Positions 1-62,260 of a DNA stretch of 64,000 nucleotides are shown here, piece after piece. The first letter of the stretch is position 1. Every line of letters starts with the position of its first letter. Under the pieces are notes generated by a model. That model was not told the DNA's origin, ran no database searches, and saw nothing but the letters and a program-made list of their open reading frames with translations. The position numbers and the translations under genes were made by a program. The stretch is from Escherichia phage vB_Eco_mar003J3, in the sequence record NC_048203.1; one strand, written 5' to 3'.

Positions 1-191
1 ACCTGAGAAAATAGTATTGAGGGTTGATGTATCTGGTGTAGTAGAGCAGTGGGATGAAGAGGGATTTATCGCACTTTGCACTGAATCTCAGGATCCTATG
101 CTTAAAGCTATGCTAGCAGTGTATAACTTAGGTATTATTGCAGGTAGTAGATAATAATAAACCCCAGTGGATTATCCACTGGGGTTTTCTT

Positions 192-29786: not shown

Positions 29787-29959
29787 TAGCGCTAATTTGA
29801 AAATCTTGAAATTTCATAAGATTACACATGCGGATGTGCTCAGTGGGACTGGAGATAGTTAGTAGTCTAATAATCCCCCTGTGTTACTATTACCATGCTA
29901 ACTGTTTCATCCTGTAACCATTTTTTAATTACAGGATGAAACTATTTTATTTTTAATTG

Positions 29960-58805: not shown

Positions 58806-58882
58806 TGGGGTGGCTAGTGGAATTCGAATCCACATAGGCCTGATTCACAATCAGGATCATTAACCAATTATGATATAGCCAC
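58806..58882 (-). tRNA. tRNA-His, anticodon GUG
   Basis: acceptor GTGGCTA/TAGCCAC; anticodon arm CCTGA-TTGTGAA-TCAGG; T-arm GTGGA-TTCGAAT-TCCAC. Confidence 0.7.
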
Positions 58883-59216
58883 AATTGAAAACTCGCAGGG
58901 TTAGCGAAACCATCCTCAAATAGCATTTTCTAGAATACTAATCAAGTTATCCCCTATTGCACGAAGCTCAAGACGAGTACGAATTTTCAATTGTGGCGGC
59001 TCTCCGAAACTCTTCCCACTTACAACTAGTTGATTACTCCTAGATTGTCGCCCAGGAAATTCTCTAGAAAGGAGCACCGTTACTCTTTGAGCCATTGAGG
59101 TGGGATAGTCTCTTATCTCTACTAACTACTTGATCCTTACAATCAGTCGGTTAGCACGAGCAGCGACTCTTCATATATAATTTATAGTGCTCAGAAGGTC
59201 ATTAGAAGCACTTATC

Positions 59217-59300
59217 AAGAAGCAGAAGGACTCGAACCTTCACGAGATAGACCATTTATCTCAGCCTCGTTTTCGGGTATCTTATGAGGAGTGGATGTTC
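59217..59300 (-). ncRNA. tRNA-like element (T-arm GAAGG-TTCGAGT-CCTTC plus 6-bp hairpin), cloverleaf not resolved
   Basis: no complementary 5' acceptor strand found by eye. Confidence 0.3.
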
Positions 59301-59379
59301 CCCTTACGCCCTTTAGGAAGCCCCGTCTACCGATTCCGGCATACTTCAAGATTCTGCTAGTCCGAGTCATGCTATAGCA

Positions 59380-59721
59380 TCAAATGCTCGGTGTTAGTGG
59401 TTTCCAAAGTTTAGCAAACTTTAAAACATTTGGTATATCGTTAGAACTTACTGGCATAACTACTAAACAGCTGGGTTCTGCGTTACAAATAGTACGCTCA
59501 AATCCTTTACTACACTCTAGCGTAGACAGAATCTTCTTAAATTCTTTCTTGTTAACCTTAATAACTACCTTAAAGAAGCAGTTGTCAAACCAATCCTTAT
59601 ATCTAGGATCATCCTGAAATTTAACATGAGCATTTAAAACAGAGTGTGCCACTAGAGTCGGCACCATATAATCAGGGGCTTCATCTAATACTGCAATATA
59701 CATCTTACTATAAGTACTCAT
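59380..59721 (-). CDS. hypothetical protein
   Basis: 113 aa. Confidence 0.45.
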   Translation of the reverse strand: MSTYSKMYIAVLDEAPDYMVPTLVAHSVLNAHVKFQDDPRYKDWFDNCFFKVVIKVNKKEFKKILSTLECSKGFERTICNAEPSCLVVMPVSSNDIPNVLKFAKLWKPLTPSI

Positions 59722-60584: not shown

Positions 60585-60867
60585 AAAATCTTTAAGTTTA
60601 CTAAGGCTATTAGCTCGGTGTGCGTATTACCCTCAGACATTAGCCAGTAGAGGATAACCGCTCTTCACAAACCCGATACACTATTCAGTTGCCGCTGAAT
60701 CTAGTGGACTAATCTAGAACTTATTGCAAAGTATCCCCCGCCATTAAGGGTCTAATTGCAATTGTGCTTTTTGGCAGCCAGTCCTAGGTCGAGCTAATAC
60801 CTTAGTGAACTTTGATGAGGATTTCTCCTCATCAATTTATATAAATATTATAACAAGAAATTAAGCA

Positions 60868-61752: not shown

Positions 61753-62139
61753 AATATTATTTCTTTAGCCACAACATACTTAATCCTAGCATTGTGAAGC
61801 CTGTACTTAGTCCTACTACTTTCCACATCGTAGAAAGTACATCTATATTAAAGCCAACAATTATTACTGGAATTACCCAAGTACACATAAATACGGATGC
61901 AATTTTTACCTTCATTTCGCTTTCCTTTCATCACTTTATAAAATATATTATACAGAGAATTAAGCAGAATAGCAAATGAATTTTTAATAAATTTACTTAT
62001 TGTGTAGGCCACCTGGAGGCTATGAACCCCACGGCTGACAAAGAAGTTTGCGAGACCTCTCTTAAATGCCAGAATAGACCCGCCGATCTATCGGAACCTA
62101 CATAATAAGTAAACTTTCGCTTACTTATAAGTCAATCTA

Positions 62140-62260
62140 GGCAGGACTTGAACCTGCTATCACTTGTGCGGATTTACGAGAACCATTCTTTCACTCGAAT
62201 CGAACGAGCTTCTACCCTCGGCAAGCTGGTGACCCCTCTCCACCACGCTAGAATGTTTAA
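62140..62260 (-). ncRNA. two tRNA-like T-arm motifs without resolvable cloverleaves (possible degenerate tRNAs)
   Basis: GCAGG-TTCAAGT-CCTGC and GCTCG-TTCGATT-CGAGT present; acceptor pairing not found. Confidence 0.25.

What the first reader, a model, noticed from the sequence alone, without database searches (positions are those of the whole stretch)
58878..59216. ORF-free 340-bp segment in the tRNA array bounded by a perfect 14-bp inverted repeat
GCCACAATTGAAAA (58878..58891, overlapping the 5' end of tRNA-His) and TTTTCAATTGTGGC (58985..58998) are exact reverse complements enclosing 93 nt, followed by a further 200 nt with no ORF and no canonical tRNA. This could be a small structured RNA, an RNA-processing signal or the footprint of a small mobile element.
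Basis: seen in the sequence. Interest (0 to 1): 0.45.

Follow-up and report, generated by a model that had tools for sequence, protein, structure and literature searches.

The report
Phage T5 stable-RNA genes, processing stem
The "ORF-free" stretch is a row of three small structured RNA genes in a T5-like phage's tRNA operon: two are already annotated in phage T5 (RNA III and RNA I, function still unknown), one is an unannotated pseudoknotted RNA, and the inverted repeat is the core of a 20-base-pair stem that probably marks where host RNase III cuts RNA III free.

Summary
All genes here are on the minus strand. By homology with the annotated T5 genome, the segment holds RNAIII (58884-58989, 96% identical to T5) and RNAI (58994-59093, T5-like ends, different interior). 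It also holds a 120-nt element I call X (59094-59213), which T5 lacks. T5 labels RNAIII and RNAI "stable RNA with unknown functions".

The repeat is the centre of an uninterrupted 20-bp helix in the precursor. That helix pairs the CCA end of RNAI, a CAAU spacer and the RNAIII 5' end with the RNAIII 3' end and the first five bases of tRNA-His. In relatives, five unrelated RNA cassettes fill the same slot, and each keeps a 19-21 bp helix. The RNAIII ends annotated in T5 sit inside the helix with a 2-nt 3' overhang. I therefore infer an RNase III processing stem; this is not shown.

X occurs in 73 phage records and is annotated as an RNA in none of the listed records. Its fold, including a pseudoknot, has strong covariation support. 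What any of these RNAs does remains unknown.

The parts
58806..58882 (-). tRNA-His (GUG). Its first five bases, GUGGC (58878-58882), form the outer end of the 3' arm of the bracket helix. Position -1 (58883) is U, not G.
   Evidence: ARAGORN; Rfam tRNA 59.9 bits; leader sequences
58884..58989 (-). RNAIII homologue, 106 nt. Predicted fold is a 12-bp closing stem around three hairpins, so it looks like a cloverleaf.
   Evidence: 96.2% identical over all 106 nt to T5 misc_RNA rnaIII. Same position next to tRNA-His. Found in 281 phage records, all at 90% identity or more. Fold z = -2.23.
58878..58897 (-). 3' arm of the 20-bp bracket helix (RNA: UGCGAGUUUUCAAUUGUGGC). It comprises the last 12 paired nt of RNAIII, then AU, then U(-1), then GUGGC of tRNA-His.
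58978..58997 (-). 5' arm of the 20-bp bracket helix (RNA: GCCACAAUUGAAAAUUCGUA). It comprises GCCA (the 3' end of RNAI), the CAAU spacer and the first 12 nt of RNAIII.
58990..58993 (-). CAAU spacer between the CCA end of RNAI and the 5' end of RNAIII. T5 leaves these four bases unannotated.
58994..59093 (-). RNAI homologue, 100 nt, 'type B' interior. It is a rod-like hairpin closed by GGCUC/GAGCC and followed by GCCA.
   Evidence: The first 21 nt and last 22 nt are 95% identical to T5 rnaI, but the interior cannot be aligned. The closing pair covaries: U-A here, C-G in Klebsiella phages. Interior pairs also covary.
59094..59213 (-). Element X, about 120 nt. It is absent from T5 and carries no RNA annotation in any listed record. 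Hairpin H1 (59186-59212) has an invariant 13-nt loop, CUAAUGACCUUCU, and is followed by an AU-rich linker. The 3' domain (59102-59162) has hairpins H2, H3 and H4, plus an H-type pseudoknot between the H2 loop (GCUAAC) and the H3-H4 linker (GUUAGU).
   Evidence: No match in the T5 tRNA region. 73 phage records. Homologues in Sugarlandvirus, Stephanstirmvirinae and Aeromonas Shenzhenvirus. Covariation: 96.4% of cells paired, 12 of 21 pairs changed on both sides, 0 of 500 shuffles as good.
59214..59350 (-). RNA1 homologue, the tRNA-like stable RNA of T5.
   Evidence: 80% identical to T5 misc_RNA rna1; canonical T arm GAAGGUUCGAGUCCUUC

Best explanation
The segment is part of a polycistronic early tRNA transcript of a T5-like phage (Demerecviridae), read from the minus strand in the order RNA1, X, RNAI, RNAIII, tRNA-His. 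RNAIII and RNAI are the 'stable RNAs' already annotated in T5. X is a further structured RNA of the same general kind.

One strand is the GCCA end of RNAI, the CAAU spacer and the first 12 nt of RNAIII. The other strand is the last 12 paired nt of RNAIII, then AAU-type trailer bases, then GUGGC of tRNA-His.

I infer that host RNase III makes a staggered cut in this duplex, 8 bp from its outer end. That cut would do three things:
- release RNAIII with a 12-bp closing stem and a 2-nt 3' overhang;
- leave a 4-nt CAAU trailer on RNAI, which exonucleases then trim back to CCA;
- free the 5' strand of tRNA-His so the tRNA can fold.

RNase P would make the 5' end of RNAI, and with it the 3' end of X.

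Shown: the identity of the genes, the existence of the helix and its conservation. Inferred: which enzyme cuts, and in what order. Unknown: what RNAIII, RNAI and X do once released.
For: Identity:
- T5 (AY543070) and phage 5 (AJ604531) annotate the homologous interval as misc_RNA rnaIII, rnaI and rna1, 'stable RNA with unknown functions'.
- The window aligns with them: RNAIII is 96% identical, RNAI matches at both ends, RNA1 is 80% identical.

Helix:
- It is 20 bp with two G-U pairs in the window and in T5.
- Four other, unrelated cassettes occupy the slot in phages bux, GEC_vB_N7, TrudiGerster and PRF-SP13. They are 63-143 nt long and each forms a 20-21 bp helix from a different inner sequence.
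- In Klebsiella phage pzk-kv23 and in phage Eos the flanks themselves differ (CCAAAUUUGA... / ...UCAAAUUUGG) yet still pair, giving 21 and 19 bp. The RNAI CCA end is again drawn into the helix.

Mature ends:
- The T5-annotated RNAIII runs from UGAAAA... to ...UUUUCAAU. Both ends lie inside the duplex with a 2-nt 3' overhang, and four bases (CAAU) are left unassigned after the RNAI CCA.
- T5 RNAIV is bracketed in the same way: a 13-bp flank helix, one mismatch, then 6 bp. That flank helix is conserved in the window.

Folding: the 205-nt precursor is predicted to keep the whole 20-bp helix at the expense of the tRNA-His acceptor stem (z = -3.57; 0 of 200 shuffles fold as well).

Transcription signals: no promoter-like site is predicted on the transcribed (minus) strand between 58883 and 59379, and the one terminator-like site (58908-58892) abuts tRNA-His.

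Precedent: RNase III cuts the double-stranded stems of rRNA operon precursors and takes part in T4 tRNA maturation (PMC4810235).
Against: There are no cleavage or expression data for this phage.

The T5 mature ends come from database annotation. I could not read the primary papers.

RNAIV shows a 1-nt overhang rather than 2 nt.

Some genomes weaken the helix: 118970_sal2 has an A-A mismatch at the cut site and an A-C mismatch at the outermost pair, and L021 and L023 also have the outermost A-C.

The constant outer 8 bp in Markadamsvirinae could be conserved simply because they belong to RNAI and tRNA-His.

I did not check the helix against the known RNase III antideterminant base pairs.

RNAIII is too conserved to give covariation for its internal fold.

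The tRNA region of T5 is dispensable in the laboratory and is a deletion hotspot (PMC12483538). None of this is therefore essential to the phage.
Confidence: 0.6

Rival explanations
1. The repeat is only the closing stem of a stable RNA, and it protects RNAIII from exonucleases. On this view the extension into RNAI and tRNA-His is incidental. It arises because the GCCAC of RNAI resembles the 3' acceptor strand of tRNA-His, and because CAAU is the usual spacer. The ends would be made by RNase P at tRNA-His, RNase E, and exonuclease trimming, with no RNase III.
For: CCA-AACAAU type spacers precede many tRNAs in this window, so CAAU is generic. The 3' end of RNAIII lies 1 nt from the tRNA-His 5' end, where RNase P cuts anyway. 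Mature RNAIII keeps a 12-bp stem, which would stabilise it.
Against: This view does not explain three observations. Unrelated cassettes all give a continuous 19-21 bp duplex. Klebsiella and Eos phages keep the extension with different flank sequences and a different downstream neighbour. RNAIV has a 13-bp helix made entirely of flanking sequence outside the mature RNA. In addition, RNase E needs single-stranded RNA, whereas the RNAIII 5' end lies inside the predicted duplex.
Confidence: 0.25
2. The repeat marks the boundaries of an exchangeable or mobile cassette. This could be a MITE-like element, or a recombination module that moves small RNA genes between phages. The inverted repeats would then act at the DNA level.
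For: At least five unrelated sequences occupy the same slot between identical flanks, CCACAATTGA and TCAATTGTGG. The modules RNAIII, RNAI, X and RNA1 occur in different combinations across genomes. X also sits in other tRNA clusters, including those of non-Demerecviridae phages. The T5 tRNA region is a known hotspot of repeat-associated recombination (PMC12483538).
Against: The repeat has no second copy in the window. There is no target-site duplication and no transposase. The inner parts of the arms differ between cassettes and belong to the RNAs themselves. Exchange by ordinary homologous recombination through the conserved RNAI and tRNA-His flanks explains the pattern without a mobile element. 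X has no hit in bacterial genomes or metagenomes, and the 331-nt RNAIII-RNAI-X query has none in 5,426 E. coli genomes.
Confidence: 0.08
3. The segment is protein-coding (the 59-aa ORF at 58916-95 on the minus strand), or the repeat is an intrinsic terminator or attenuator.
For: The ORF exists. Several GenBank records annotate 'hypothetical protein' over the homologous DNA. A terminator-like hairpin followed by UUUU is flagged at 58908-58892.
Against: The ORF frame is broken by five stops in T5. The region is annotated as RNA in T5 and phage 5. The 'terminator' is followed immediately by tRNA-His, which must be transcribed, and its stem competes with the 20-bp helix that dominates the predicted fold.
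Confidence: 0.02

Closest known systems
Phage T5 stable RNAs RNAIII and RNAI (misc_RNA rnaIII and rnaI in AY543070 / NC_005859, and in phage 5 record AJ604531)
   Same: RNAIII has the same length (106 nt), 96% identity and the same position against tRNA-His. RNAI has the same termini, the same GCCA end and the same position.
   Different: The RNAI interior, about 57 nt, is replaced by an unalignable 'type B' sequence shared with Klebsiella and Eos phages. The window carries an extra gene, X, between RNA1 and RNAI.
RNase III processing stems: the stems flanking 16S and 23S rRNA in rrn operons, and RNase III involvement in the phage T4 tRNA cluster
   Same: A long duplex of about 20 bp forms between sequences on either side of a mature RNA. 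The mature ends lie inside the duplex, staggered with a 3' overhang. The general role of RNase III is as stated in PMC4810235.
   Different: Here the duplex is short, exactly two helical turns. It borrows the CCA end of one RNA and the 5' acceptor strand of a tRNA. Cleavage has not been demonstrated for T5-like phages in anything I could read.
Phage T4 'species 1' and 'species 2' stable RNAs (rnaC, rnaD) in the T4 tRNA cluster (from my own knowledge; not checked here)
   Same: They are small stable RNAs of unknown function, co-transcribed and co-processed with phage tRNAs.
   Different: No sequence relationship was tested. Rfam has no family for either the T4 or the T5 set, so no formal comparison was possible.
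H-type pseudoknot RNAs such as tmRNA pseudoknots and plant-virus tRNA-like structures. This is a resemblance in how X folds, not a claim of family membership.
   Same: In X, a hairpin loop pairs with a downstream strand. The pairing is 6 bp and 5 of those pairs change on both sides.
   Different: There is no Rfam match at E<=10, no CCA end, no tag ORF and no evidence of aminoacylation.

Membership tests
T5 RNAIII (stable RNA) | Full-length sequence homology to T5 rnaIII | tested here: met
   96.2% identity over 106 of 106 nt
T5 RNAIII (stable RNA) | Position: immediately 5' of tRNA-His and 4 nt 3' of the RNAI CCA end | tested here: met
T5 RNAIII (stable RNA) | Accumulates as a discrete stable RNA during infection | not testable with these tools
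   Known only from the T5 annotation
T5 RNAI (stable RNA) | Conserved termini: GGCUCAAAG...GUAACGGUGC at the 5' end and ...GAGUUUC..GAGAGCCGCCA at the 3' end | tested here: met
   21 nt and 22 nt at 95% identity; the closing helix covaries
T5 RNAI (stable RNA) | Homology of the interior sequence to T5 rnaI | tested here: not met
   The interior cannot be aligned with T5. It belongs to a second type, shared with L025, L087, L088, L096, Klebsiella phages and Eos.
E. coli RNase III substrate | About two turns (roughly 20 bp) of uninterrupted double-stranded RNA | tested here: met
   20 bp here; 19-21 bp across seven cassette and flank combinations
E. coli RNase III substrate | Products with staggered ends and a 2-nt 3' overhang | tested here: met
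   The T5-annotated RNAIII ends give a 2-nt overhang inside the helix. This rests on annotation only. RNAIV gives 1 nt.
E. coli RNase III substrate | Cleavage depends on RNase III (rnc) | not testable with these tools
   Needs an in vitro cleavage assay or an rnc mutant infection
E. coli RNase III substrate | No antideterminant base pairs in the proximal and distal boxes | not tested
   I did not have the rule set to hand
tRNA | Cloverleaf that scores with ARAGORN or Rfam RF00005 | tested here: not met
   Nothing in 58883-59213, even at E<=10
Any Rfam 15 family | A covariance-model hit | tested here: not met
   for the window; for the whole T5 tRNA region, where only tRNAs hit
MITE or other small mobile element | Terminal inverted repeats with a target-site duplication and several copies | tested here: not met
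   The repeat 14-mer occurs only at the two arms. No direct repeats flank it.
Intrinsic terminator | GC-rich hairpin and U-tract at the end of a transcription unit | tested here: not met
   The flagged site at 58908-58892 is weak (5 bp) and abuts tRNA-His. It is outcompeted by the 20-bp helix.

The most novel reading that the evidence does not exclude
The 20-bp helix acts as a molecular ruler. It fixes an RNase III cut exactly one nucleotide upstream of tRNA-His. The phage tRNA-His has the E. coli acceptor stem and C73 but encodes U, not G, at position -1. The cut would let it keep a -1 residue that RNase P would otherwise remove. The helix would also create a standard 'socket', into which T5-like phages swap unrelated small RNAs (RNAIII and at least four alternatives). 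X and RNAI would be further members of a repertoire of exchangeable structured RNAs. These would act in trans, for example as decoys or inhibitors of host tRNA-targeting or RNA-sensing defences.
Probability: 0.15. Interest if true: 0.7.

Novelty: new member of a known kind. Interest (0 to 1): 0.4.

Why it matters
The stable RNAs of the T5 tRNA region remain annotated only as 'stable RNA with unknown functions', and they are in no RNA-family database. As a result, annotators label them 'hypothetical protein' or nothing at all.

This analysis adds three things that make the old question more approachable:
- A specific, testable model of how RNAIII is cut out, and of how that cut is coupled to the maturation of RNAI and tRNA-His.
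- The observation that the RNAIII position is a variable slot holding unrelated RNAs. That pattern usually signals conflict with hosts or with competing phages.
- A new structured RNA, X, with a pseudoknot proven by covariation, shared by Salmonella, Klebsiella and Aeromonas phages from at least two families.

The core of the finding is nevertheless a rediscovery of annotated T5 genes.

Tried and rejected
- Rfam at the gathering threshold and at E<=10 gave no family for RNAIII, RNAI or X. The only hits were tRNAs and chance matches.
- A 15-mer from the X loop scanned against IMG/VR gave 56 hits. All but two were chance or coding matches.
- A strict structural pattern for X gave nothing beyond phages already known from GenBank in IMG/VR, and nothing in bacterial genomes or JGI metagenomes.
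- The 331-nt segment has no match in 5,426 complete E. coli genomes, so there is no sign of host mimicry or a prophage origin.
- I looked for antisense targets of the invariant X loop in the window. There were 5 sites with 3 or fewer mismatches, against 6.5 expected, so no signal.
- Coding reading of the 59-aa ORF: rejected.
- Possible 9-aa peptide in RNAIII (AGGAG, 5 nt, then UUG): I consider it unlikely. It lies inside a predicted 12-bp hairpin, and the few substitutions between T5 and the window are non-synonymous. This rests on inspection only.
- A whole-interval fold has z = -0.19 and is uninformative. Single-sequence folds of RNAI and RNA1 are not better than shuffles, so their structures rest on comparative data.
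- Literature: I found no paper in the searchable library on the function or processing of T5 RNAI or RNAIII. The Glukhov 2018 paper on T5 deletion mutants is not held.
- Covariation for the internal fold of RNAIII is not obtainable, because all 281 copies are at least 90% identical.

Full report
**Observation.** The sequence GCCACAATTGAAAA lies at 58878-58891, and its exact reverse complement lies at 58984-58997. The left arm overlaps the first five bases of tRNA-His (58806-58882, minus strand). That 14-mer is expected 0.02 times per window. Any perfect 14-nt inverted repeat with a loop of 150 nt or less is expected about 0.05 times per 64 kb; the window has three. ARAGORN and Rfam, even at E<=10, find no tRNA or known RNA family in 58883-59213. 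"ORF-free" is not strictly correct, because a 59-aa ORF lies at 58916-59095 on the minus strand. The same frame in T5 stops after 22 codons, so it is a chance ORF. The real non-coding interval is 58883-59379.

**What the segment is.** The window comes from a T5-like phage (Demerecviridae). The interval matches more than 500 phage records, mostly Salmonella, Escherichia and Klebsiella phages. T5 (AY543070) and phage 5 (AJ604531) annotate the homologous interval on the same strand as three misc_RNA genes. These are rnaIII (106 nt, abutting tRNA-His), rnaI (107 nt) and rna1 (tRNA-like, 144 nt), all described as "stable RNA with unknown functions".

Alignment and BLAST give this map for the window, all on the minus strand:
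- RNAIII at 58884-58989, 96% identical to T5.
- A CAAU spacer at 58990-58993.
- RNAI at 58994-59093. Only its first 21 nt and last 22 nt match T5; the interior is replaced.
- A 120-nt element with no counterpart in the T5 tRNA region, at 59094-59213. I call it X.
- RNA1 at 59214-59350, 80% identical to T5.

No promoter-like site is predicted on the transcribed (minus) strand inside the interval, and the one terminator-like site (58908-58892) abuts tRNA-His. This fits co-transcription with the tRNAs.

**What the repeat is.** Read as RNA, the repeat is the middle of an uninterrupted 20-bp duplex with two G-U pairs: GCCACAAUUGAAAAUUCGUA pairs with UGCGAGUUUUCAAUUGUGGC. The 5' strand is the GCCA end of RNAI, the CAAU spacer and the first 12 nt of RNAIII. 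The 3' strand is the last paired 12 nt of RNAIII, then AU, then U(-1), then GUGGC of tRNA-His.

The comparative data are the strongest evidence that this duplex matters:
- Among 33 loci, the slot between the RNAI CCA end and tRNA-His holds five unrelated cassettes. They are T5-type RNAIII (106 nt), a bux type (121 nt), a GEC_vB_N7 type (63 nt), a TrudiGerster type (133 nt) and a PRF-SP13 type (143 nt). Each forms a continuous 20-21 bp helix from a different inner sequence.
- In Klebsiella phage pzk-kv23 and in phage Eos the flanks themselves differ (CCAAAUUUGA... / ...UCAAAUUUGG) and the downstream neighbour is not tRNA-His. A helix of 21 or 19 bp that includes the RNAI CCA end is still kept.
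- A few genomes carry one mismatch.

**Inferred mechanism.** The RNAIII ends annotated in T5 (5' UGAAAA..., 3' ...UUUUCAAU) lie inside the duplex, 8 bp from its outer end, and leave a 2-nt 3' overhang. The four bases after the RNAI CCA are assigned to no RNA. This is the product geometry of RNase III, which cuts double-stranded stems in rRNA precursors and is involved in T4 tRNA maturation (PMC4810235).

A second T5 stable RNA, RNAIV, is bracketed the same way: a 13-bp helix made only of flanking sequence, one mismatch, then 6 bp. The window conserves that arrangement at 62104-62116 and 61989-62001.

In the predicted fold of the 205-nt precursor, the 20-bp helix forms in full and the tRNA-His acceptor stem does not (z = -3.57; 0 of 200 shuffles fold as well). 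A cut would therefore be needed, or at least helpful, for tRNA-His to fold.

I conclude that the repeat is most likely an RNase III processing stem. It would release RNAIII and couple the 3' maturation of RNAI to the 5' maturation of tRNA-His. The existence and conservation of the helix are shown. The enzyme and the order of events are inferred. The T5 ends come from annotation that I could not trace to primary data.

**RNAIII and RNAI as molecules.**
- RNAIII is predicted to form a 12-bp closing stem around three hairpins (z = -2.23). It occurs in 281 phage records, all at 90% identity or more. That is much tighter than its neighbours, so selection probably acts on its sequence and not only on its fold. 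The same conservation means no covariation is available to test the internal fold.
- RNAI folds as a rod-like hairpin closed by GGCUC/GAGCC and followed by GCCA. The closing pair covaries (U-A here, C-G in Klebsiella phages), and several interior pairs covary in the window's interior type.

**Element X.** X is found in 73 phage records and has no RNA annotation in any listed record. These include a subset of Salmonella Epseptimavirus phages, Klebsiella Sugarlandvirus phages (copies in two different tRNA contexts within the genus) and three ~145-kb Klebsiella phages, of which KP13-26 is classified in Stephanstirmvirinae. A 3'-domain homologue occurs in Aeromonas Shenzhenvirus. X always sits between tRNAs or stable RNAs.

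A 12-sequence alignment of the 3' domain supports three hairpins and an H-type pseudoknot between the H2 loop and the H3-H4 linker. In it, 96.4% of cells are paired, 12 of 21 pairs change on both sides, and 0 of 500 shuffles do as well. Slid controls pair at 53% or less. In the pseudoknot helix, 5 of 6 pairs change on both sides.

The 5' hairpin has an invariant 13-nt loop, and 4 of its 7 stem pairs are compensated between two lineages. The loop's GACCUUC could pair with the invariant GAAGGGUC downstream. The Aeromonas versions keep an equivalent ACC/GGU pairing with compensatory changes (UACC/GGUA, UACU/AGUA). This second pseudoknot remains tentative.

A strict structural pattern for X finds nothing in bacterial genomes or metagenomes. 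The segment has no match in 5,426 E. coli genomes.

**Function.** Nothing here reveals what RNAIII, RNAI or X do. The T5 tRNA region is a deletion hotspot and is dispensable in the laboratory (PMC12483538), so any role is conditional. The variable slot, the mosaic distribution of modules and the tight conservation of RNAIII would fit trans-acting RNAs involved in host or phage conflict. That is speculation. I looked for antisense targets of the X loop in the window and found none above chance.

**Comparison and novelty.** RNAIII is a clear member of the T5 RNAIII family. RNAI is a member by its ends and position, with a variant interior. The helix meets the structural criteria for an RNase III substrate, but cleavage itself is untested. 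The mobile-element, terminator and coding readings each fail their defining tests.

The core of the finding is a rediscovery of annotated T5 genes. As far as I could check, three things are new: the X RNA family, the variable cassette slot with its conserved two-turn helix, and the link to the 5' end of tRNA-His, which carries U rather than G at position -1.

Verdict: new member of a known kind, of moderate interest.

Noticed in passing
window 58883 (minus strand); same in all 33 loci: The phage tRNA-His has the E. coli acceptor stem (GUGGCUA/UAGCCAC) and C73 but encodes U, not G, at position -1. T5 annotates the tRNA as 78 nt including this U. Bacterial HisRS normally depends on G-1, so how this tRNA is matured and charged is an open question.
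   Followed up: partly
window 62001-62103 (RNAIV), flanks 62104-62116 and 61989-62001; also RNA2 at 62131-62255 and RNA2H at about 60665-60799: Other T5 'stable RNAs of unknown function' are present in the window. RNAIV is bracketed by a 13-bp helix made of flanking sequence (AAGUUUACUUAUU / AAUAAGUAAAUUU), the same design as at RNAIII.
   Followed up: partly
L029 582-700, L087, L088, L096 (slot between the RNAI CCA end and tRNA-His): Four further unrelated small-RNA cassettes of 63-143 nt replace RNAIII in relatives. The bux, PRF-SP13, Klebsiella and Eos cassettes share a 3' motif, GGAGGNCUGAUCANCCC. The bux cassette also contains AGGAG followed by a 16-codon GUG ORF.
   Followed up: partly
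L087 652-858 (GECvBN7_gp079c); L088 628-813 (bas27_0126); several rows: GenBank records annotate 'hypothetical protein' CDSs across the RNAI and RNAIII DNA. Given the T5 RNA annotation and the lack of a conserved frame, these are probably annotation artefacts.
   Followed up: partly
window 59214-59350: RNA1 has a tRNA-like top half (class II type D arm, canonical T arm, 6-bp acceptor stem). Its lower half is replaced by extra hairpins, one of which has a conserved loop, AACAUCCRCU, and a covarying stem. One GenBank record calls it tRNA-Leu (H47).
   Followed up: partly
L028 about 1607-1690 (Klebsiella phage KP2025): Directly upstream of the X copy lies an unannotated tRNA-like sequence with a CCA (Trp) anticodon loop and a canonical T arm. 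ARAGORN does not call it.
   Followed up: no
window 159-187 and 29904-29942: These are the only two other perfect 14-nt inverted repeats with short loops in the window. They may be terminators; I did not examine them.
   Followed up: no
T5 record AY543070 40848-41566 (L026 16849-17567), outside the window: T5 annotates a 719-nt 'RNAX, stable RNA with unknown functions' next to tRNA-Arg. It matches no Rfam family.
   Followed up: no
hit H204, OR848495.1 'Listeria phage LM 4-14-1' (5.7-kb record): A record labelled as a Listeria phage carries T5-type RNAIII at 95% identity. This probably reflects contamination or mislabelling.
   Followed up: no
window 59380-59721 (minus strand): A 113-aa ORF lies between RNA1 and tRNA-Ser. 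T5 has a shorter, different ORF there (T5.063, 57 aa), so this is another variable spot in the operon.
   Followed up: no
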